Shown here: positions 15,183 to 25,800 of the stretch, piece after piece
Layout of the letters: each line of letters opens with the position of its first letter
Position numbering within the stretch: the first letter of the stretch is position 1
Source: a phage
Direction: 5' to 3' (one strand)
Sequence record: PX759567.1
DNA: 39,152 nt
The notes under the pieces: model-generated
The model's database searches: none
The model's input: only the letters and a program-made list of their open reading frames with translations
Told to the model about the DNA's origin: nothing
Made by a program: the position numbers and the translations under genes

Positions 15183-18100
15183 ATGGATAAGTACGATAAG
15201 AACGTACCAAGTGAGTATGATGGTCTGTTCCAGAAGGCGGCTGATGCCACAGGGGTCTCTTATGACCTTTTACGTAAAGTCGCTTGGACAGAATCACGAT
15301 TTGTGCCTACAGCAAAATCCAAGACTGGACCATTAGGCATGATGCAATTCACCAAGGAAACCGCTAAGGCCCTCGGTCTGCGAGTTACCGATGGTCCAGA
15401 CGACGACCGACTGAACCCTGAGTTAGCCATCAATGCTGCCGCTAAGCACCTTGCAGGTCTGGTAGGTAAATTCGATGGTGATGAACTCAAAGCTGCCCTT
15501 GCGTATAACCAAGGCGAGGGACGCTTGGGTAATCCTCAACTTGAGGCGTACTCAAAGGGAGACTTCGCGTCCATCTCTGAGGAGGGGCGTAATTACATGC
15601 GTAGCCTTCTGGATGTTGCTAAGTCACCTATGGCTGGACAGTTGGAAACTTTTGGAGGTATCACCCCAAAGGGTAAAGGCATTCCGGCTGAGGTAGGATT
15701 GGCTGGAATTGGTCATAAGCAGAAGGTGACACAGGAACTACCTGAGTCCACAAGTTTTGACGTTAAGGGTATCGAACAGGAGGCTCCGGCGAAACCATTC
15801 GCCAAGGACTTTTGGGAGACCCACGGAGAAACGCTTGACGAATACAACAGTCGTTCAACCTTCTTCGGATTCAAAAATGCTGCCGAAGCTGAACTCTCCA
15901 ACTCAGTCGCTGGGATGGCTTTCCGTGCTGGTCGTCTCGATAATGGTTTTGACGTGTTTAAAGACACCATTACGCCGACTCGCTGGAACTCTCACATCTG
16001 GACTCCAGAAGAGTTAGAGAAGATTAGAACAGAGGTTAAGAACCCTGCGTACATCAACGTGGTAACTGGTGGTTCCCCTGAGAATCTTGATGACCTTATT
16101 AAGCTGGCTAACGAGAACTTTGAGAATGACTCACTCGCTGCCGAAGCTGGTCTAGGTGCAAAACTGAGTGCTGGTATTATTGGCGCTGGCGTGGACCCTC
16201 TTAGCTATGTCCCTATGGTCGGTGTCACTGGTAAGGGCTTTAAGTTAATCAATAAGGCTCTTGTAGTTGGTGCCGAAAGCGCTGCTCTGAACGTTGCATC
16301 CGAAGGTCTCCGTACCTCCGTAGCTGGTGGTGACGCAGACTATGCGGGTGCTGCCTTAGGTGGCTTTGTGTTTGGTGCTGGTATGTCCGCAATCAGTGAC
16401 GCTGTAGCTGCTGGTCTGAAACGTAGTAAACCAGAAGCTGAGTTCGATAATGAGTTCATTGGTCCTATGATGCGAATGGAAGCCCGTGAGACAGCGCGTA
16501 ACGCCAACTCTGCGGACCTCTCTCGTATGAACACTGAGAACATGAAGTTTGAGGGTGAGCATAACGGAGTACCTTATGAGGACCTTCCTACTGAGAAGGG
16601 CGCTGTGGTACTGCACGATGGCTCCGTTCTAAGTGCAAGCAACCCAATCAACCCTAAGACCCTCAAAGAGTTCTCTGAGGTTTACCCTGAGAAGGCTGCG
16701 CGAGGAATCAAACTTGCTGGGTTCACCGAGATTGGCTTGAAGACCTTGGGGTCTGACGATGCTGACATCCGTAGAGTGGCTATCGACCTCGTTCGCTCTC
16801 CTACCGGTATGCAGTCTGGTGCCTCCGGTAAGTTCGGTGCAACAGCTTCTGACATCCATGAGAGACTTCATGGTACTGACCAGCGTACTTACAATGACTT
16901 GTACAAAGCAATGTCTGACGCTATGAAAGACCCTGAGTTCTCTACTGGTGGAGCTAAGATGTCCCGTGAAGAAACTCGCTACACTATCTACCGTAGAGCG
17001 GCACTGGCTATTGAGCGCCCAGAGTTACAGAAGGCACTCACTCCGTCTGAGAGAATCGTTATGGACATCATTAAGCGTCACTTTGACACCAAGCGTGAAC
17101 TCATGGAGAATCCCGCAATCTTCGGTAATACGAAGGCTGTGAGTATCTTCCCTGAGAGTCGTCATAAGGGAACCTACGTTCCCCACGTATACGACCGACA
17201 CGCTAAGGCAATGATGATTCAGCGCTACGGTGCCGAAGGTTTACAGGAAGGTATTGCTCGTTCGTGGATGAACAGCTACGTCTCCAGACCTGAGGTCAAG
17301 GCCAGAGTCGATGAGATGCTTAAGGAAGTACACGGGGTGAAGGAAGTAACTCCAGAGATGGTAGAGAAGTACGCTATGGATAAGGCTTACGGTATCTCCC
17401 ATTCAGACCAGTTCTCCAACAGTTCCATCATCGAAGAGAACATTGAGGGCTTAGTAGGTATTGAGAACAACTCATTCCTTGAGGCACGTAACTTGTTTGA
17501 TTCGGACCTATCAATCACTATGCCGGACGGACAGCAATTCTCAGTGAACGACCTAAGGGACTTCGATATGTTCCGCATCATGCCAGCGTATGACCGCCGT
17601 ATCAATGGTGACATCGCTATCATGGGGTCTACAGGGAAAACAACTAAGGAACTTAAGGATGAGATTTTGGCTCTCAAAGCGAAAGCTGAGGGAGACGGTA
17701 AGAAGACTGGCGAGGTTCACGCTCTAACGGATACCGTTAAGATTCTTACTGGTCGTGCTCGACGTAATCAGGACACTGTGTGGGAAACCTCACTGCGTTC
17801 CATCAATGACCTAGGGTTCTTCGCTAAGAACGCCTACATGGGTGCTCAGAACATTACGGAGATTGCTGGGATGATCGCCACTGGTAACGTTCGTGCTCTC
17901 GGTCACGGTATACCAATTCTGCGCGATACGCTCTACAAGTCTAAACCAGTTTCCGCTAAGGAACTCAAGGAACTCCATGCGTCTCTGTTCGGGAAGGAGG
18001 TGGACCAGTTGATTCGGCCTAAACGTGCTGACATTGTGCAGCGCCTAAGGGAAGCAACTGATACCGGACCTGCTGTGGCGAACATCGTAGGGACCTTGAA

Positions 18101-19139
18101 GTATTCCACACAGGAACTGGCTGCTCGCTCTCCGTGGACTAAGCTGCTGAACGGAACCACTAACTACCTTCTGGATGCTGCGCGTCAAGGTATGCTTGGG
18201 GATGTTATTAGTGCCACCCTAACAGGCAAGACTACCCGCTGGGAGAAAGAAGGCTTCCTTCGTGGTGCCTCCGTAACTCCTGAGCAGATGGCTGGTATCA
18301 AGTCTCTCATCAAGGAACATATGGTACGTGGTGAGGACGGGAAGTTTACCGTTAAGGACAAGCAAGCGTTCTCTATGGACCCACGGGCTATGGACTTATG
18401 GCGACTGGCTGACAAGGTAGCTGATGAGGCAATGCTGCGTCCGCATAAGGTGTCCTTACAGGATTCCCATGCGTTCGGAGCGTTGGGTAAGATGGTAATG
18501 CAGTTTAAGTCTTTCACTATCAAATCCCTTAACTCCAAGTTCCTGCGAACCTTCTACGATGGATACAAGAACAACCGAGCGATTGACGCTGCGCTGAGTA
18601 TTATCACCTCTATGGGTCTCGCTGGTGGTTTCTACGCTATGGCTGCACACGTCAAGGCATATGCTCTGCCTAAGGAGAAACGTAAGGAGTACTTGGAGCG
18701 AGCACTGGACCCAACCATGATTGCACACGCTTCATTGTCTCGTAGTTCTCAATTGGGTGCTCCTTTGGCTATGGCTGACCTAGTTGGTGGTGTCTTAGGG
18801 TTCGAGTCCTCCAAGATGGCTCGCTCTACGATTCTACCTAAGGACACCACGAAGGAACGTGACCCAAACAAACCGTACACCTCGAGAGAGGTAATGGGTG
18901 CTATGGGTTCAAACCTTCTGGAGCAGATGCCTTCCGCTGGCTTTGTGGCTAACGTTGGGGCTACCTTAATGAATGCTGCTGGCGTGGTCAACTCACCTAA
19001 CAAAGCAACCGAGCAGGACTTCATGACTGGCTTAATGAACTCTACCAAGGAGTTAGTACCTAACGACCCTCTTACTCAACAGCTTGTGATTAAGATTTAT
19101 GAGGCCAATGGTGTTAACTTGAGGGAGCGTAGGAAATAA
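15183..19139 (+). CDS. 16: internal virion protein D gp16 with N-terminal lytic transglycosylase domain
   Basis: 1318-aa ORF; N-terminus has SLT-like motifs (TESRF..., MMQFTKETAKALGL, AYNQGEG). Confidence 0.95.
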   Translation: MDKYDKNVPSEYDGLFQKAADATGVSYDLLRKVAWTESRFVPTAKSKTGPLGMMQFTKETAKALGLRVTDGPDDDRLNPELAINAAAKHLAGLVGKFDGDELKAALAYNQGEGRLGNPQLEAYSKGDFASISEEGRNYMRSLLDVAKSPMAGQLETFGGITPKGKGIPAEVGLAGIGHKQKVTQELPESTSFDVKGIEQEAPAKPFAKDFWETHGETLDEYNSRSTFFGFKNAAEAELSNSVAGMAFRAGRLDNGFDVFKDTITPTRWNSHIWTPEELEKIRTEVKNPAYINVVTGGSPENLDDLIKLANENFENDSLAAEAGLGAKLSAGIIGAGVDPLSYVPMVGVTGKGFKLINKALVVGAESAALNVASEGLRTSVAGGDADYAGAALGGFVFGAGMSAISDAVAAGLKRSKPEAEFDNEFIGPMMRMEARETARNANSADLSRMNTENMKFEGEHNGVPYEDLPTEKGAVVLHDGSVLSASNPINPKTLKEFSEVYPEKAARGIKLAGFTEIGLKTLGSDDADIRRVAIDLVRSPTGMQSGASGKFGATASDIHERLHGTDQRTYNDLYKAMSDAMKDPEFSTGGAKMSREETRYTIYRRAALAIERPELQKALTPSERIVMDIIKRHFDTKRELMENPAIFGNTKAVSIFPESRHKGTYVPHVYDRHAKAMMIQRYGAEGLQEGIARSWMNSYVSRPEVKARVDEMLKEVHGVKEVTPEMVEKYAMDKAYGISHSDQFSNSSIIEENIEGLVGIENNSFLEARNLFDSDLSITMPDGQQFSVNDLRDFDMFRIMPAYDRRINGDIAIMGSTGKTTKELKDEILALKAKAEGDGKKTGEVHALTDTVKILTGRARRNQDTVWETSLRSINDLGFFAKNAYMGAQNITEIAGMIATGNVRALGHGIPILRDTLYKSKPVSAKELKELHASLFGKEVDQLIRPKRADIVQRLREATDTGPAVANIVGTLKYSTQELAARSPWTKLLNGTTNYLLDAARQGMLGDVISATLTGKTTRWEKEGFLRGASVTPEQMAGIKSLIKEHMVRGEDGKFTVKDKQAFSMDPRAMDLWRLADKVADEAMLRPHKVSLQDSHAFGALGKMVMQFKSFTIKSLNSKFLRTFYDGYKNNRAIDAALSIITSMGLAGGFYAMAAHVKAYALPKEKRKEYLERALDPTMIAHASLSRSSQLGAPLAMADLVGGVLGFESSKMARSTILPKDTTKERDPNKPYTSREVMGAMGSNLLEQMPSAGFVANVGATLMNAAGVVNSPNKATEQDFMTGLMNSTKELVPNDPLTQQLVIKIYEANGVNLRERRK

Positions 19140-19159
19140 TACGACTCACTATAGGGAGA
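19137..19159 (+). promoter_or_regulatory. T7 RNAP promoter phi17
   Basis: exact consensus overlapping gene 16 stop codon. Confidence 0.9.
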
Positions 19160-19211
19160 GGCGAAATAATCTTCTCCCTGTAGTCTCTTAGATTTACTTT
19201 AAGGAGGTCAA

Positions 19212-20888
19212 ATGACTAACGCAATTAAAACCGTTTTGACTTACCAGTTAGATGGATCCAATCGTGATTTTAATATCCCGTTTGAGTATCTAGCCCGTAA
19301 GTTCGTAGTGGTAACTCTTATTGGTGTAGACCGAAAGGTCCTTACGATTAATACAGACTATCGCTTTGCTACGCGTACTACTATCTCTCTGACAAAGGCT
19401 TGGGGTCCAGCCGATGGCTACACGACCATCGAGTTACGTCGAGTAACCTCCACTACCGACCGATTGGTTGACTTTACGGATGGTTCAATCCTCCGAGCGT
19501 ATGACCTTAACGTAGCTCAGATTCAAACGATGCACGTAGCGGAAGAGGCCCGTGACCTCACTGCTGATACTATCGGTGTCAATAATGATGGTAACTTGGA
19601 TGCGCGTGGTCGTCGCATTGTAAACCTAGCGAACGCCGTGGATGACCGCGATGCTGTTCCGTTTGGTCAACTTAAGACCATGAACCAGAACTCGTGGCAG
19701 GCTCGTAATGAGGCACTACAGTTCCGTAATGAGGCTGAGACTTTCAGAAATCAAGCGGAGGGCTTTAAGAACGAGTCCAGTACCAACGCTACGAACACAA
19801 AGCAGTGGCGCGATGAGACCAAGGGTTTCCGAGACGAAGCCGAGCAGTCCAAGAATACGGCTGGTCAATACGCTACATCTGCTGGGAACTCTGCTACTGC
19901 TGCGCATCAATCTGAGGTAAATGCTGGGAGCTCTGCTACAGCATCTACTAACTCTGCGCATTTGGCAGAACAACACGCAGACCGTGCGGAACGCGAAGCA
20001 GACAAGCTGGGGAATTTTAACGGACTAGCTGGCGCAATTGACAGGGTGGATGGAACCAATGTGTACTGGAAAGGAGGTATCCATGCGAACGGACGCCTTT
20101 ACCTTACCTCAGATGGTTTTGACTGTGGCCAGTATCAACAGTTCTTTGGTGGTGGCACTAATAGTTATTCTGTCATGGAGTGGGGAGATGATAGCGGATG
20201 GCTGATGCATGTTCAACGTAGAGAGTGGACAACAGCGATAGGCAGTAACATCCAGTTAGTAGTAAACGGACAGATCATCACCCAAGGTGGAGCCATGACC
20301 GGTCAGCTAAAATTGCAGAATGGGCATGTTCTTCAATTAGAGTCCGCATCCGACAAGGCTCACTATATTCTATCTAAAGATGGTAACAGGAATAACTGGT
20401 ACATTGGTAGAGGGTCAGATAACAACAATGACTGTACCTTCCACTCCTATGTACATGGTACGACCTTAACACTCAAGCAGGACTATGCAGTAGTTAACAA
20501 ACACTTCCACGTAGGTCAGGCCGTTGTGTCCACTGATGGTAATATTCAAGGTACTAAGTGGGGAGGTAAGTGGCTTGATGTTTACCTAAACGATACTTAC
20601 GTTAAGAAGACAATGGCTTGGACTCAAGTATGGGCTGCTGATAGTGGTAAGTACCTGCCAGGAGGTTCTCAGACTGATACTCTCCCACAGGACTTGCGAT
20701 TCCGCAACATATGGATTAGGACCAGAAACAACTATTGGAACTTCTTCCGAACTGGTCCTGATGGTATCTACTTCCTTTCAGCCGAGGGCGGTTGGCTAAA
20801 ATTCCAGATACACTCTAATGGCAGGGTATTTAAGAACATATCGGATGGAAATGCTCCTCCAACAGCAATAGCCGTAGAGGACGTGTAA
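19212..20888 (+). CDS. 17: tail fibre protein gp17
   Basis: 558-aa ORF; N-terminal and central parts T7-like, C-terminal tip divergent. Confidence 0.95.
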   Translation: MTNAIKTVLTYQLDGSNRDFNIPFEYLARKFVVVTLIGVDRKVLTINTDYRFATRTTISLTKAWGPADGYTTIELRRVTSTTDRLVDFTDGSILRAYDLNVAQIQTMHVAEEARDLTADTIGVNNDGNLDARGRRIVNLANAVDDRDAVPFGQLKTMNQNSWQARNEALQFRNEAETFRNQAEGFKNESSTNATNTKQWRDETKGFRDEAEQSKNTAGQYATSAGNSATAAHQSEVNAGSSATASTNSAHLAEQHADRAEREADKLGNFNGLAGAIDRVDGTNVYWKGGIHANGRLYLTSDGFDCGQYQQFFGGGTNSYSVMEWGDDSGWLMHVQRREWTTAIGSNIQLVVNGQIITQGGAMTGQLKLQNGHVLQLESASDKAHYILSKDGNRNNWYIGRGSDNNNDCTFHSYVHGTTLTLKQDYAVVNKHFHVGQAVVSTDGNIQGTKWGGKWLDVYLNDTYVKKTMAWTQVWAADSGKYLPGGSQTDTLPQDLRFRNIWIRTRNNYWNFFRTGPDGIYFLSAEGGWLKFQIHSNGRVFKNISDGNAPPTAIAVEDV

Positions 20889-20946
20889 TAAGCATCAAAG
20901 GAACTACTTTAAGTCCACGGATGGACTATCACACTAAGGAGGACAC

Positions 20947-21150
20947 ATGTTGTCATTGGATTTTAACAACGAACTAATTAAAGCGGCACCGATTGTAGGT
21001 ACAGGTGTTGCGGATGTTAGTGCAAGACTGTTCTTCGGGCTAAGCCTGAATGAATGGTTCTATGTGGCTGCTATCGCCTACACAGTGGTTCAGATTGGTG
21101 CCAAGGTAGTCGATAAGGTGATTGACTGGAAGAAAGCCAATAAGGAGTGA
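20947..21150 (+). CDS. 17.5: holin gp17.5
   Basis: 67-aa ORF with hydrophobic segment, same length as T7 gp17.5. Confidence 0.9.
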   Translation: MLSLDFNNELIKAAPIVGTGVADVSARLFFGLSLNEWFYVAAIAYTVVQIGAKVVDKVIDWKKANKE

Positions 21151-21155
21151 TATGT

Positions 21156-21425
21156 ATGGAAAAAGATAAGAGCCTCATTACGTTCTTAGAGATGTTGGAT
21201 ACTGCGATGGCTCAGCGTATGCTTGCGGACCTTTCGGACCCTGAGCGCCGCTCTCCACAACTCTATAACGCCATCAATAAACTGTTAGACCGCCATAAGT
21301 TCCAGATTGGTAAGTTGCAGCCGGATGTTCACATCTTGGGTGGCCTTGCTGGTGCTCTTGAGGAGTACAAAGAGAAAGTCGGTGACAACGGTCTTACGGA
21401 TGACGATATTTATACACTACAGTGA
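21156..21425 (+). CDS. 18: terminase small subunit gp18
   Basis: 89 aa from ATG 21156 (MEKDKSLITFLEML...); ORF track begins at upstream GTG 21147. Confidence 0.85.
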   Translation: MEKDKSLITFLEMLDTAMAQRMLADLSDPERRSPQLYNAINKLLDRHKFQIGKLQPDVHILGGLAGALEEYKEKVGDNGLTDDDIYTLQ

Positions 21426-21971: not shown

Positions 21972-22454
21972 ATGTCTACTCAAGCCAATCGTAATGCGCT
22001 CGTAGTGGCGCAACTGAAAGGAGACTTCGTGGCGTTCCTGTTCGTCTTATGGAAGGCGTTAAACCTTCCTGTTCCAACTAAGTGTCAGATTGACATGGCT
22101 AAGGTGCTGGCGAATGGAGACAACAAGAAGTTCATCTTACAGGCTTTCCGTGGTATCGGTAAGTCGTTCATCACGTGTGCGTTCGTTGTGTGGTCCTTAT
22201 GGAGAGACCCTCAGTTGAAGATACTTATCGTATCAGCCTCTAAGGAACGTGCAGACGCTAACTCCATCTTTATTAAGAACATCATTGACCTGCTGCCGTT
22301 TCTCAGCGAGTTGAAGCCAAGACCCGGACAGCGTGACTCTGTGATTAGTTTCGACGTAGGTCCAGCTAAGCCTGACCACTCTCCTAGTGTGAAATCGGTA
22401 GGTATCACCGGTCAGTTAACTGGTAGCCGTGCTGACATTATTATTGCGGACGAT
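21972..22454 (+). CDS. 19: terminase large subunit gp19, exon 1
   Basis: N-terminal 161 codons matching T7 gp19 (...[15 protein letters not shown]); frame then hits GAA TAA inside the intron. Confidence 0.9.
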
Positions 22455-23290
22455 GAATAACCATGTCGTCCTTAAACCCATCTAAACAGGGAAACCCGGA
22501 GCCTAACATGGTATACGGCAATCCTGTGCTAAATGAGACAGCCATAAAGAGCCTTATAGGCCCCCTAAGCGTCTCTAAATGCCAAACGACTAAGTAGTAG
22601 GGCCAAGTGGCTCGAAACGGTGGGAGAGCATTTACGGATGCTCTAAGATATAGTCTCGTCTATGGTGAGAAGCCATAGCACCATTTATTACGTAACACAT
22701 AAGGAGTCTAACATGACCACTATGAAGAAAACTCGATATGAAGTAGGTTCAATCCATGAGTCCCCTAAAGGTCCGCTCAAGGTCCTCGAGTACATTCCGG
22801 GATATAAGGACCGCTCAACAGGTAAAAAAGTACATCCTCGCGTAGTAATTCGTATGATGAACACAGGGACTGTGCTCAACGTTCAAACCACGAATATACC
22901 AGATGGTAAGTTTGAGGACTATCGACGTACCACAGTTTACGGCATTGGGTATATAGGGTCTTCCATTAAAATCACCGCTAGAGGGACATTCATCCGGCGT
23001 GTGTATGACCTATGGGCCAACATGCTTAAGCGCGTGGTTCATGAGTATCAGGGAGTATCCGTGGACCCAAGATGGCTCAACTTTACGAATTTCTTGGCGA
23101 CTATTCCGGATGTTAAGGGATATGCTGCGTGGGAGCGTGGTGAGGATGTTCATCTGGATAAAGACCTAGCTGGGAATAAACGATACTCATTGGAGGACTG
23201 TGCGTTCATTCCAGCTAAAGACAACATTCGAGAGTCTTCGTTACGTAGGTGGCGTAAGAAATAACGAGCTTACGTTAAGATAATTATTCG
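22455..23290 (+). mobile_element. group I self-splicing intron (probably IA-type) within gene 19
   Basis: P1: exon GGACGAU (22448-22454) pairs with IGS GUCGUCC (22465-22471), U.G at splice site; ends in G; R/S-like core CGACUA (22587-22592) and AAGAUAUAGUC (22645-22655); P8-like hairpin 22625-22644; ligated exons restore D-D-V-E. Confidence 0.85.
22713..23264 (+). CDS. intron-encoded protein, family not recognised (putative homing endonuclease)
   Basis: 183 aa from ATG 22713 with AAGGAG 6 nt upstream (ORF track starts at 22662); lies 3' of the P7 strand; no canonical HNH, GIY-YIG or LAGLIDADG motif seen. Confidence 0.7.
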   Translation: MTTMKKTRYEVGSIHESPKGPLKVLEYIPGYKDRSTGKKVHPRVVIRMMNTGTVLNVQTTNIPDGKFEDYRRTTVYGIGYIGSSIKITARGTFIRRVYDLWANMLKRVVHEYQGVSVDPRWLNFTNFLATIPDVKGYAAWERGEDVHLDKDLAGNKRYSLEDCAFIPAKDNIRESSLRRWRKK

Positions 23291-24568
23291 GTGGAAATTC
23301 CATCTAACAGTGCAACTATGGGTGCCCGTGAGAAGTTATGGACTCTTGTTCAGGAGTTCGCTGCGTTACTTAAGCCGCTGCCTTCCTCTCGTGTTATCTA
23401 CCTTGGAACACCTCAGACCGAGATGACTCTCTATAAGGAACTTGAGGATAACCGTGGGTATACCACTATTATCTGGCCTGCTCTGTACCCAAGGACACAC
23501 GAAGAGAACCTCTATTACTCACAGCGTCTTGCTCCTATGCTACGTGCTGAGTACGATGAGAACCCTGAGGCACTCGCTGGGACTCCAACAGACCCTGTGC
23601 GCTTTGACCGTGATGACCTGCGTGAGCGTGAGTTGGAATACGGTAAGGCTGGCTTCACACTACAGTTCATGCTTAACCCGAACCTGAGTGATGCTGAGAA
23701 GTACCCTCTGAGGCTCCGTGACGCTATCGTAGCGGCCTTAGACTTAGAGAAGGCCCCAATGCATTACCAGTGGCTTCCGAACCGTCAGAACATCATTGAG
23801 GACCTTCCTAACGTTGGCCTTAAGGGTGATGACCTTCATACTTATCATGATTGCTCCAACAACTCAGGTCAGTACCAACAGAAGATTCTGGTCATTGACC
23901 CTAGTGGTCGCGGTAAGGACGAAACAGGTTACGCTGTGCTGTACACTCTGAACGGCTACATCTACCTAATGGAAGCTGGAGGTTTCCGTGATGGTTACTC
24001 CGATAAGACCCTTGAGTTGCTCGCTAAGAAAGCGAAGCAATGGGGAGTCCAGACGGTTGTCTACGAGAGTAACTTCGGTGACGGTATGTTTGGTAAGGTG
24101 TTCAGTCCTATCCTTCTTAAACACCACAACTGTGCAATGGAAGAGATTCGTGCTCGTGGTATGAAGGAGATGCGTATTTGTGATACCCTTGAGCCAGTCA
24201 TGCAGACTCACCGCCTTGTCATTCGTGATGAGGTCATTAGGGCCGACTACCAGTCCGCTCGTGACGTAGACGGTAAGCATGACGTTAAGTACTCACTGTT
24301 CTACCAGATGACCCGTATCACTCGCGAGAAAGGTGCTCTGGCTCATGATGACCGATTGGATGCCCTTGCGTTAGGCATTGAGTATCTCCGTGAGTCCATG
24401 CAGTTGGATTCCGTTAAGGTCGAAGGTGAAGTAATTGCTGACTTCCTTGAGGAACACATGATGCGCCCTACAGTGTCTGCTACCCACATCATTGAGATGT
24501 CTGTAGGAGGAGTTGATGTGTACTCTGAGGACGATGAGGGTTACGGTACGTCTTTCATTGAGTGGTAA
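23291..24568 (+). CDS. 19: terminase large subunit gp19, exon 2
   Basis: translation (V)[22 protein letters not shown]...SFIEW continues the T7 gp19 sequence; the GTG at 23291 is codon V, not a start. Confidence 0.9.
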
Positions 24569-24605: not shown

Positions 24606-25067
24606 ATGATAAACAAGAAGAAGTATGTTGTCGATAAGGAGACTGGTTGCTGGAACTTTAAGGGATGCAAGACTAAGACAGGCTATGGTCGTCTCCGTGT
24701 AAATGGAGTCCATTGGATGGCTCACAGGTATTCCCTGAGTTGTCATCTAGGTAGACCGATAGCTGATGGAATGGTTGTGATGCACCTTTGTGATAACCCG
24801 TCATGTGTTAACCCTGAGCACCTTAAGGAAGGGACTCAGAAGGAGAATATGGATGACTGTAAGGCCAAAGGTAGGATGTACAGACCGGGGGCCACAGGCA
24901 AACCAAAGACCAGTACGGCGAAGGTTATCTATCACGATGACTGGCGTAAAGACCAAGTTATCCGCTACCATGTACGCTGGAAATGGAAGCCGTCTCGTAT
25001 TGCTGAGAAGATGAGACTATCTATAACGTGGGTTAAGAGGGTCTTAGAGGAGTACGTAAGTCATTGA
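24606..25067 (+). CDS. free-standing HNH homing endonuclease (HNH_3-like)
   Basis: 153-aa ORF, strong RBS TAAGGAGG; motifs GCWNF..TGYGRL..AHRYS..HLCDNPSCVNPEHL..EN; no counterpart at this locus in T7. Confidence 0.85.
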   Translation: MINKKKYVVDKETGCWNFKGCKTKTGYGRLRVNGVHWMAHRYSLSCHLGRPIADGMVVMHLCDNPSCVNPEHLKEGTQKENMDDCKAKGRMYRPGATGKPKTSTAKVIYHDDWRKDQVIRYHVRWKWKPSRIAEKMRLSITWVKRVLEEYVSH

Positions 25068-25635: not shown

Positions 25636-25800
25636 TCTCACAGTGTACGGACCCAAAGTTCCCCCATAGGGGGTACCTAAAGCCCAGCCAATCACCTAAA
25701 GTCAACCTTCGGTTGACCTTGAGGGTTCCCTAGGGGTTGGGATGACCCTTGGGTTTACCTTTGAGTGTTGCCTTGGGTGTAACCTTGAGTGTCTCTCTGT
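25636..25800. repeat. terminal repeat region / concatemer junction (single copy in this permuted representation)
   Basis: TCTCACAGTGTACGGACC... matches the T7 left-end sequence as recalled; TR extent (about 160 bp) inferred from T7. Confidence 0.5.

What the first reader, a model, noticed from the sequence alone, without database searches (positions are those of the whole stretch)
20590..20888. Divergent C-terminal tip of tail fibre gp17
The N-terminal and central parts of the 558-aa fibre match T7 as recalled, but the last roughly 90 residues (…LDVYLNDTYVKKTMAWTQVWAADSGKYLPGGSQTDTLPQDLRFRNIWIRTRNNYWNFF…NISDGNAPPTAIAVEDV) differ at many positions, including indels, from my recollection of the T7 receptor-binding tip. 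This suggests a different LPS receptor specificity or host range.
Basis: partly seen in the sequence, partly recalled or inferred. Interest (0 to 1): 0.4.

Follow-up and report, generated by a model that had tools for sequence, protein, structure and literature searches.

The report
T3/13a-type tail-fibre receptor tip
The end of this T7-like phage's tail-fibre gene really does differ from T7, but it is the already known T3/13a-type receptor-binding tip, carried as a recombination module, and differs from phage 13a by only two amino acids in one receptor-facing loop.

Summary
Gene 17 (window 19212-20888, 558 aa) is 94% identical to T7 gp17 over residues 1-454. Over the last 104 residues it is only 62/104 identical, with one 5-residue insertion. 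The changes fall mainly in the outward, receptor-facing loops: 16/21 positions differ there against 17/66 elsewhere.

The tip is not new. It is the T3/13a-type allele: 102/104 identical to phage 13a and 95/104 to T3. The literature already reports 62% identity between the T3 and T7 tips. It also shows that putting T3 or 13a C-terminal fibre regions into T7 changes host range.

The T7-divergent block is a recombination module. It covers about 20571-21050 (tip, spacer, 5' part of holin gene 17.5) and has T7-like sequence on both sides. Synonymous divergence from T7 is about 2.0 in the tip against 0.15 upstream.

The one unusual feature is in the HI loop. R546G and D547N come from three substitutions within 9 nt. 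I found them in no public sequence I searched, and they sit at a position where T3 host-range mutants arise (D547G).

Verdict: a new allele of a well-known kind. Interest is low.

The parts
19137..19159 (+). phi17 class III T7-type promoter, overlapping the gene 16 stop codon
   Evidence: Perfect 23/23 match to TAATACGACTCACTATAGGGAGA. The window holds 9 such sites against 0 expected by chance. T7 and 13a annotate phi17 at the same relative place.
19201..19207 (+). Shine-Dalgarno AAGGAGG, 4 nt upstream of the gene 17 ATG
   Evidence: Read directly from the sequence.
19212..20888 (+). Gene 17, tail fibre protein gp17, 558 aa (stop codon included)
   Evidence: ORF. 96.4% nt identity to PDP351P2, 94.9% to 13a, 93.3% to T3 and about 91% to T7 gene 17. 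Pfam PF03906, PF20744 and PF12604 all score above their cut-offs.
19212..19697 (+). N-terminal tail-attachment domain (aa 1-162)
   Evidence: PF03906 Phage_T7_tail, 244 bits. Nearly invariant across T7, T3 and 13a. Matches PDB 8dsp and 8e4g.
20322..20600 (+). Pyramid (trimerisation) domain, aa 371-463, of T7/13a type
   Evidence: PF20744 gp37_trimer, 128.6 bits. 0-2 nt mismatches per 90 nt to T7, 13a and PDP351P2, against 5-13 to T3.
20604..20885 (+). Receptor-binding tip domain, aa 465-558, beta-sandwich of T3/13a type
   Evidence: PF12604 gp37_C, 32.9 bits against a cut-off of 22.5. AF2 model pLDDT is 80-94 over aa 471-558 (block means), and the model's confident part begins at about aa 467; strands are at 470-475, 499-504, 509-513, 518-524, 527-533, 540-546 and 550-556. 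The only strong PDB fold hits are 4A0U and 4A0T, E about 1e-21. 102/104 identical to 13a and 62/104 to T7.
20637..20669 (+). BC outward loop (aa 476-486, AADSGKYLPGG-S). It holds the 5-residue insertion relative to T7 (aa 479-483, window 20646-20660)
   Evidence: Alignments and the loop position in the model. The T3 BC loop (AASGSYMGG, 476-484) is a host-range-determining region, and G483R is a natural host-range mutant (bioRxiv 10.1101/699090).
20847..20858 (+). HI outward loop (aa 546-549, GNAP). It carries R546G and D547N plus a synonymous change in codon 548, relative to every other T3-type tip examined
   Evidence: Window GGA AAT GCT against AGA GAT GCG in 13a, T3, PDP351P2 and AH67C600_Q5. 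No phage record matches the last 89 nt better than 86/89. Not found in IMG/VR or metagenome contigs. The T3 HI-loop mutants D545N/Y/V, D547G and P549H/R expand host range.
20571..21050 (+). T3-type recombination block that diverges from T7: tip domain, 58-nt spacer and the 5' part of gene 17.5
   Evidence: Mismatches per 60 nt to T7 are 11-36 inside the block and 0-4 on both sides. To T3, 13a and phiA1122 they are 0-8 inside the block, then 8-15 (12, 8-10, 14-15 in the three 60-nt windows) across 21108-21287 in gene 18, falling back to 0-4 by 21288-21407.
20947..21150 (+). Gene 17.5, class II holin (67 aa). Its 5' part belongs to the T3-type block
   Evidence: ORF. Position and annotation in T7, T3 and 13a. 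Mismatch profile.

Best explanation
Window 20574-20888 encodes the distal tip domain of the T7-group tail fibre gp17, in its T3/13a allelic form rather than the T7 form.

Shown here:
- The gene is intact. It sits in the canonical place, between gene 16 and the gene 17.5 holin, behind a perfect phi17 promoter.
- It has the three gp17 domains: tail-attachment domain, pyramid and tip.
- The tip is predicted with high confidence as the same beta-sandwich as T7 4A0T.
- Compared with T7, the substitutions and the single 5-residue insertion concentrate in the distal loops BC, DE, FG and HI. The inward loops CD and EF are unchanged.
- The tip is 98% identical to that of phage 13a.
- The T7-divergent sequence is a discrete block of about 480 bp (tip, spacer, start of the holin gene) flanked by T7-like sequence. 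Its synonymous divergence from T7 is saturated. It is therefore an old allele moved by homologous recombination, not recent point-mutation drift. 13a and PDP351P2 share the same junction.

Inferred from published work on T3, T7 and 13a:
- Six gp17 trimers make the first, reversible contact with the LPS core through these loops.
- The T3/13a-type tip gives a host range different from T7. In a T7 chassis, T3 and 13a tips allow plating on ECOR16, which T7 does not infect.
- This phage should therefore adsorb like 13a, not like T7.

Additional inference: the unique HI-loop pair R546G/D547N probably modulates which LPS cores are accepted. It removes the arginine conserved in all close T3-type tips. 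It also changes the aspartate that mutates to glycine when T3 adapts to truncated LPS.
For: - Gene structure and context.
- Domain matches.
- Comparison with the true T7 sequence: (428/454 against 62/104 identical, one 5-aa gap).
- Loop enrichment of the differences: 16/21 outward against 17/66 elsewhere, Fisher p = 6e-5.
- Fold: tip pLDDT 80-94; Foldseek finds only 4A0U and 4A0T, E about 1e-21.
- Allele identity: 13a 98.8% nt and 107/109 aa; 22 T3-type records at 89% aa identity or more, against 66% or less for all T7-type records.
- Block borders and mosaicism.
- dS against T7 is about 2.0 in the tip and 0.148 upstream. Among T3-type tips dN/dS is about 1-2.6, against 0.08-0.18 upstream.
- Sites that vary among T3-type tips are also enriched in the outward loops: 11/21 against 6/66, p = 7e-5.
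- Literature: tip swaps move host range, and T3 versus T7 tips are 62% identical (10.1101/020891). T3 loops BC and HI are host-range-determining regions, with natural mutants G483R, E525G, D545N/Y/V, D547G and P549H/R (10.1101/699090). The T7 exterior loops drive specificity, including the R542 'hook' and D540 (PMC8043750). Natural T3/T7 recombination occurs inside gene 17 (PMC3276506).
Against: - No adsorption or host-range data exist for this phage. The functional consequence rests entirely on homology to T3 and 13a.
- The model is a monomer built from a 14-sequence alignment. Its pyramid half is poorly predicted (pLDDT below 60), and no T3-type tip structure has been solved. Loop boundaries and side-chain orientation are therefore approximate.
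- Ando et al. found that the rest of the fibre also affects infectivity: T7 carrying whole 13a gp17 behaved differently from T7 carrying only the 13a C-terminal region on K-12. The tip alone does not fix host range.
- The dN/dS values within T3-type tips rest on very few substitutions (1-3 synonymous).
Confidence: 0.85

Rival explanations
1. The HI-loop double change R546G/D547N is the functionally important feature. On this view it is an adaptation, natural or acquired during isolation and propagation, that shifts receptor preference away from that of 13a and T3. Examples would be a different LPS core type or a truncated core. This tip would then be a distinct specificity variant, not just another 13a allele.
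For: - Three of the four nt differences from 13a in the last 329 nt fall within 9 nt. The permutation probability is about 0.006.
- R546 is invariant in all 22 close T3-type tips and in several distant long fibres, which read ADRDAPP.
- D547G is a recurrent T3 host-range mutation and is even the representative sequence of the public T3-type protein cluster.
- Aligned T7 positions S541 and R542 are specificity drivers.
- The SDGN motif was found in none of the collections I searched.
Against: - The net charge of the loop is unchanged, since one positive and one negative residue are lost together. The pair could be compensatory and nearly neutral.
- More distant natural tips vary freely here (ADNN, ADSG, ADHS, ADSR).
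- The linked synonymous change in codon 548 argues against a fresh laboratory point mutation.
- No phenotype data exist.
Confidence: 0.35
2. The divergence from T7 is functionally neutral variation of a tolerant domain. On this view host range is set elsewhere, for example by gp11/gp12, internal proteins or anti-defence genes, and the tip difference has no consequence.
For: - Overall dN/dS of the tip against T7 is 0.14, which indicates purifying selection on the fold.
- Deep mutational scanning of T7 shows that many tip positions tolerate substitution.
- Post-adsorption factors also limit T3 and T7 plating (PMC3276506).
Against: - The differences are concentrated in the outward loops and absent from the inward loops CD and EF.
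- Swapping only the C-terminal gp17 region between T3, T7 and 13a exchanges plating on K-12 and ECOR16, and changes adsorption by about 4 orders of magnitude.
Confidence: 0.08
3. The feature is an artefact. One possibility is that the first reader mis-recalled T7. Another is that the tip, or its HI-loop variant, comes from sequencing or assembly error or from a chimeric assembly of mixed T7-like phages. A third is that the phage is an engineered T7(13a C-gp17)-like construct.
For: - Mixed T7-group lysates are common. T3 and T7 contigs co-occur in one metagenome assembly.
- Engineered T7 with a 13a tip exists.
Against: - The real T7 sequence was used for the comparison.
- The reading frame is intact and the same length as T3 and 13a.
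- The same T7-like-pyramid plus T3-like-tip junction is present in independent records for 13a and PDP351P2.
- The whole window is only about 93-94% identical to T7 or 13a, so it is not a laboratory T7.
- The engineered 13a gene was codon-optimised, whereas this sequence is 98.8% identical to natural 13a DNA.
- The three HI-loop changes are substitutions, not homopolymer indels.
Confidence: 0.03

Closest known systems
Escherichia phage 13a gp17 (YP_002003979, NC_011045)
   Same: 558 aa. Same domain order and the same chimeric layout, with a T7-identical pyramid domain followed by a T3-like tip. Tip 102/104 aa identical and last 329 nt 325/329 identical. Same T3-type spacer and gene 17.5 start.
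   Different: In the tip, R546G and D547N in the HI loop, plus two synonymous changes. Upstream, the shaft differs: in aa 241-315, 13a shows 8-14 nt mismatches per 90, and this region of the window is PDP351P2/T3-like. The whole gene is 94.9% nt identical.
Enterobacteria phage T3 gp17 (NP_523342), the reference T3-type tip used to define host-range-determining regions
   Same: 558 aa, same long BC loop, tip 95/104 identical. The outward loops BC, DE, FG and HI are defined as host-range-determining regions. The LPS outer-core glucose is reported as its receptor.
   Different: Nine tip substitutions (V457, D477, K480, L482, P483, R503, S544, G546, N547). Six of them lie in the BC and HI loops, including positions 483 and 547 where T3 host-range mutants map. 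The pyramid domain of the window is T7-type, not T3-type.
Phage T7 gp17 tip domain (PDB 4A0T/4A0U; full fibre 7BOZ/7EY9)
   Same: Same fold, with Foldseek E about 1e-21 and 77% identity over aa 371-558. Hydrophobic core and inward loops are identical. Residues 346-439 are identical.
   Different: The T7 tip is 5 residues shorter in the BC loop and only 62/104 identical. The T7 'hook' R542 aligns with N547 here, S541 with G546 and G476 with A476. dS is about 2.0.
Teseptimavirus PDP351P2 gene 17 (OZ035763, unannotated)
   Same: Best whole-gene match at 96.4% nt, identical over gene nt 721-900. Same tip type. It also shares the intron-containing gene 19 region at 99.3%.
   Different: The tip is 96/104 identical. 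All 8 differences are non-synonymous and loop-biased: K480R, Y481F, D489G, R505K, N506H, S544E, G546R, N547D.
Engineered T7 carrying the 13a C-terminal gp17 region (Ando et al., bioRxiv 10.1101/020891)
   Same: The same architecture in principle: a T7-like N-terminal fibre with a 13a-type tip. It plated on ECOR16 as well as on K-12 BW25113 and MG1655. This is the best available functional proxy.
   Different: It is a synthetic, codon-optimised 13a segment joined at residue about 150 in a true T7 genome. The window is a natural mosaic with several junctions in a genome only about 93-94% identical to T7, and it carries G546/N547.

Membership tests
T7-group (Studiervirinae) tail fibre gp17 | N-terminal tail-attachment domain (Pfam PF03906 Phage_T7_tail) | tested here: met
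   244.1 bits against a cut-off of 25.2, aa 1-162. Matches PDB 8dsp and 8e4g at E about 1e-101.
T7-group (Studiervirinae) tail fibre gp17 | C-terminal pyramid domain followed by a beta-sandwich tip domain (PF20744 plus PF12604; the fold of 4A0T) | tested here: met
   PF20744 128.6 bits and PF12604 32.9 bits against a cut-off of 22.5. phmmer to 4a0t gives E 4.9e-99. The AF2 tip has pLDDT 80-94 and Foldseek hits 4A0U and 4A0T. The pyramid half of the monomer model is of low confidence.
T7-group (Studiervirinae) tail fibre gp17 | Conserved genomic position: downstream of gene 16, behind the phi17 promoter, upstream of holin gene 17.5 and gene 18 | tested here: met
   ORF order. Perfect phi17 promoter at 19137-19159. 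Same layout in the annotated T7, T3 and 13a records.
T7-group (Studiervirinae) tail fibre gp17 | Forms homotrimeric fibres that bind LPS core reversibly | not testable with these tools
   Inferred from T7 and T3 literature only.
T3/13a-type tip allele | 558-aa protein with the long BC loop (5 extra residues relative to T7) | tested here: met
   Alignments A1 and A2. The gap in T7 lies opposite window G479-P483.
T3/13a-type tip allele | High identity to T3-type tips and low identity to T7-type tips | tested here: met
   89-98% aa identity to 22 T3-type records and 66% or less to all T7-type records. 102/104 to 13a, 95/104 to T3 and 62/104 to T7.
T3/13a-type tip allele | HI-loop motif D545-R546-D547 shared by close members. 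This is a conserved trait, not a formal definition. | tested here: not met
   The window has D545-G546-N547. All close relatives have DRD, or DRG in YpYeO9 and the cluster representative P0003. This is allelic variation inside a known hypervariable host-range loop, so it does not remove the sequence from the allele class.
T7-type tip allele | Identity to T7 in the receptor-contact loops: short glycine-rich BC loop SGSAGGG and HI loop ADSRSV with R542 | tested here: not met
   BC differs at 9/11 positions with a 5-aa insertion, and HI at 4/4. T7 R542 aligns with N547.

The most novel reading that the evidence does not exclude
The HI-loop pair R546G/D547N came about through three clustered substitutions. 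It is absent from every public phage, virome, metagenome and protein collection I searched. It could define a naturally occurring specificity variant of the T3/13a tip. Such a variant would have lost the conserved arginine and would recognise a different LPS core, or a truncated core, compared with 13a and T3. It would be a natural counterpart of the engineered HI-loop 'phagebodies'.
Probability: 0.3. Interest if true: 0.3.

Novelty: new member of a known kind. Interest (0 to 1): 0.15.

Why it matters
The finding matters mostly as a correct annotation. For adsorption, this phage should be treated as 13a/T3-like, not T7-like, when predicting its host range or choosing propagation and indicator strains.

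It is also a clean natural example of the tip, spacer and holin start moving as one recombination cassette. One junction lies at the pyramid/tip boundary, about where engineers cut when swapping tips.

The only point with some research value is the unique SDGN HI loop. If it alters LPS-core preference, it adds a natural data point to the known map of host-range-determining residues in T3 and T7 fibres. That map is used for phage-therapy engineering.

Tried and rejected
1. I searched the 5.8-billion-protein collection with only the C-terminal 188 aa. It returned 2 hits among 25 candidates. The word index works poorly on this fragment, so I repeated the search with the full protein.

2. An exact look-up of the 558-aa protein found nothing on record.

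3. I looked for a donor of the HI-loop patch in several ways:
- The exact 23-mer in IMG/VR gave 0 hits.
- Peptide-pattern scans that included FKNISDGN, run on IMG/VR and on metagenome contigs, returned only T3, phiA1122 and T7 themselves.
- A sensitive blastn of the last 89 nt found no record better than 86/89.
No donor was found, so I could not decide between short-patch recombination and stepwise mutation.

4. Only 15 of the 32 members of the T3-type 90% protein cluster could be listed. An SDGN variant among the 17 unnamed members is therefore not excluded.

5. The Garcia-Doval & van Raaij 2012 structure paper (PMC3386108) is not held. I took strand and loop boundaries from my own AF2/DSSP model and from the descriptions in Yehl et al. 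and Huss et al.

6. AF2 on a monomer cannot model the intertwined pyramid domain (pLDDT 33-58). The global TM-score to 4A0T is therefore only 0.46, even though the tip matches.

7. I considered that the window might be an engineered T7(13a) construct or a laboratory T7/T3 hybrid. I rejected this because the whole genome is only about 93-94% identical to any reference, and the 13a-type DNA has natural codons rather than optimised ones.

Full report
**1. What is at the coordinates**

The finding lies at the 3' end of a 558-codon ORF, window 19212..20888 on the + strand. The ORF follows gene 16 (15183..19139). A perfect T7 class III promoter lies at 19137-19159 and an AAGGAGG ribosome-binding site at 19201-19207. 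Downstream come a 67-codon holin gene (20947..21150) and gene 18.

Pfam finds the three parts of a T7-group fibre:
- Phage_T7_tail, aa 1-162, 244 bits.
- gp37_trimer (pyramid), aa 371-463, 129 bits.
- gp37_C (tip), 33 bits against a cut-off of 22.5.

The window as a whole is a circularly permuted, nearly complete Teseptimavirus genome. It is about 93-94% identical to 13a and T7, and the T7-type left end lies at 25636.

**2. Checking the observation against the real T7 sequence**

I used the PDB sequences of T7 gp17 and NC_001604. Residues 1-454 are 428/454 identical to T7, and residues 346-439 are identical. Residues 455-558 are only 62/104 identical, with one 5-residue gap in T7 opposite window G479-P483.

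At the DNA level, T7 mismatches per 60 nt jump from 0-2 (20271-20570) to 15-36 (20571-20927).

The quoted peptide begins at 20574, not 20590. About 104 residues are involved, not about 90. There is one indel.

**3. What the tip is**

It is the T3/13a-type allele.
- The last 329 nt are 98.8% identical to phage 13a and 95.7% to T3.
- At the protein level, 22 phage records carry a tip 89-98% identical. Every T7-type record is 66% or less.
- Tip identities are 13a 102/104, AH67C600_Q5 98/104, PDP351P2 96/104, T3 95/104 and phiA1122 93/104.

This contrast is already published. Ando et al. state that the last 104 aa of T3 gp17 are only 62% identical to the last 99 aa of T7 (bioRxiv 10.1101/020891).

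Among more distant fibres the long BC loop is the commoner form. The short T7 loop is also seen in Tarrare-like fibres.

**4. Structure mapping**

I made an AlphaFold2 model of aa 371-558 from an alignment of 14 homologues. The tip is predicted at pLDDT 80-94. The pyramid half is poor in a monomer, as expected for an intertwined trimer. Foldseek against the PDB finds only 4A0U and 4A0T, E about 1e-21.

I combined the model's strands with the B-I nomenclature of Yehl et al. and Huss et al.. The differences from T7 then distribute as follows:
- Outward loops: BC 9/11, DE 2/4, FG 1/2, HI 4/4.
- Inward loops: CD 0/6, EF 0/4, GH 2/6.
- Outward loops against the rest of the tip: 16/21 against 17/66, Fisher p = 6e-5.

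The T7 specificity-driver positions map as follows:

| T7 residue | Window residue |
|---|---|
| N501 | N506 |
| G479 | G484 |
| D540 | D545 |
| D520 | E525 |
| R542 (the 'hook') | N547 |
| S541 | G546 |

**5. Origin as a recombination module**

The T7-divergent block runs from about 20571 to about 21050. It takes in the tip, the 58-nt spacer and the first part of gene 17.5. Across 21108-21287 in gene 18 the window is T7-like again and differs from T3 and 13a at 8-15 positions per 60 nt; by 21288-21407 all of them are 0-4 mismatches from the window.

Synonymous divergence from T7 is about 2.0 in the tip against 0.148 upstream. The two tip types are therefore old alleles that are exchanged, not recent drift.

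The same junction, a T7-identical pyramid followed by a T3-like tip, is present in 13a and PDP351P2. The exchange therefore predates this phage.

Gene 17 is mosaic further upstream too. Gene nt 721-900 are identical to PDP351P2 and close to T3 and AH67C600_Q5, but differ from T7 and 13a at 13-15 positions per 90 nt. Natural T3 x T7 crossovers inside gene 17 have been documented (PMC3276506).

**6. How it most likely works**

The following is shown by others for T3, T7 and 13a, and is inferred here for this phage. Six gp17 trimers make the first reversible contact with the LPS core through the distal loops of the tip.
- T3 uses an outer-core glucose and fails on K-12 BW25113 and MG1655. T7 plates on those strains.
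- T3 and 13a tips, but not the T7 tip, allow plating on ECOR16.
- Moving only the C-terminal part of gp17 transfers these properties.

The window's fibre has a T7-like N-terminal part and pyramid with a 13a-type tip. It resembles the engineered T7 carrying the 13a C-terminal region, which plated on both ECOR16 and K-12. I therefore expect 13a-like rather than T7-like adsorption. This is homology-based and untested.

**7. The one unusual detail**

Relative to 13a, the tip has only four nucleotide differences. Three of them lie within 9 nt, at 20847, 20850 and 20855. The window reads GGA AAT GCT where others read AGA GAT GCG. This gives R546G, D547N and a synonymous change. The probability of such clustering by chance is about 0.006.

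All close T3-type tips have R546. They have D547, or G547 in YpYeO9 and in the representative of the public protein cluster.

D547G, D545N/Y/V and P549H/R are the natural HI-loop mutations by which T3 gains the ability to infect waaG and waaC mutants. G483R in the BC loop is another, and the window, like 13a, has P483 at that position.

I did not find the SDGN motif in any of these searches:
- 50,697 phage records.
- IMG/VR.
- Metagenome contigs.
- An exact-protein look-up in the 15-billion-protein collection.

Seventeen unnamed members of the T3-type cluster could not be inspected.

Among T3-type tips, variable sites are enriched in the outward loops: 11/21 against 6/66, p = 7e-5. Pairwise dN/dS is about 1-2.6, against 0.08-0.18 in the rest of the gene. 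These dN/dS values rest on very few changes. The pattern fits ongoing diversification of the receptor loops, and the G546/N547 pair may be part of it. It may equally be a charge-compensated, nearly neutral pair.

**8. Comparison with what is known, and verdict**

This is a bona fide T7-group gp17, with all the sequence, fold and synteny features met. It carries a T3/13a-type tip, and it fails the test for a T7-type tip.

It is a new allele of a known kind, two residues away from 13a. It is not a new kind of receptor-binding domain.

The implied novelty is not there. Interest is low at 0.15. The most novel reading still open is that the SDGN HI loop retargets the fibre, with probability about 0.3 and modest interest.

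Noticed in passing
window 21972-24568 (+): The terminase large-subunit gene 19 is split into a 162-codon ORF (21972..22460) and a 425-codon ORF (23291..24568, Terminase-T7 RNaseH-like domain). About 830 nt separate them. That spacer holds an Rfam group I intron match at 22415-22678 (RF00028, 49 bits against a gathering score of 50, E 3.5e-11) and a 200-codon ORF (22662..23264) with no Pfam hit. The same insert is 99.3% identical in PDP351P2 and about 89% identical in Salmonella phages Vi06, CHRF_10025/10027 and Sal_R1S, where it is annotated as an HNH endonuclease between two terminase pieces. T7, T3 and most relatives lack it.
   Followed up: partly
window 24606-25067 (+): A 153-codon ORF just downstream of gene 19 carries an HNH_3 endonuclease domain (36.9 bits) and a weak zinc-binding homing-endonuclease loop match. 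It is probably a free-standing homing endonuclease near the right genome end.
   Followed up: no
window 25636-25665 (+): The T7-type left genome end (TCTCACAGTGTACGGACC.AAAGTTCCCCC, 1 mismatch) lies at 25636 (the query string was recalled from memory of T7). Several phage records start exactly there. The window is therefore a circular permutation of a whole genome. No direct repeat of 60 nt or more exists, so the terminal repeat is present only once.
   Followed up: partly
window 19930-20110 (gene 17 nt 721-900, aa 241-300): A second mosaic patch lies in the fibre shaft. It has 0 mismatches to PDP351P2 and 0-4 to AH67C600_Q5 and T3, but 13-15 per 90 nt to T7 and 8-14 to 13a. Gene 17 is thus built from at least four segments of different ancestry.
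   Followed up: partly
window 21108-21290 (gene 18, 5' half): Ancestry switches at the gene 17.5/18 boundary. Upstream the window matches T3, 13a and phiA1122 (0-1 mismatches per 60 nt). Downstream it matches T7 and AH67C600_Q5 (2-7) and differs from T3 and 13a (8-15).
   Followed up: no
public protein cluster P0003 (related sequences, not the window): The representative of the 90% cluster of T3-type fibres, seen on 5 Logan contigs, carries D547G, the laboratory host-range mutation of T3. Near-identical T3 fibres are deposited under Xylella fastidiosa assemblies, which presumably reflects phage contamination of those data sets.
   Followed up: no
window 3543, 6441, 7477, 11845, 19137, 26023, 31251, 31327, 31829 (+): There are nine matches to the 23-nt T7 RNA polymerase promoter consensus, six of them perfect, all on the + strand. 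This confirms T7-type rather than T3-type promoter specificity for this phage.
   Followed up: no
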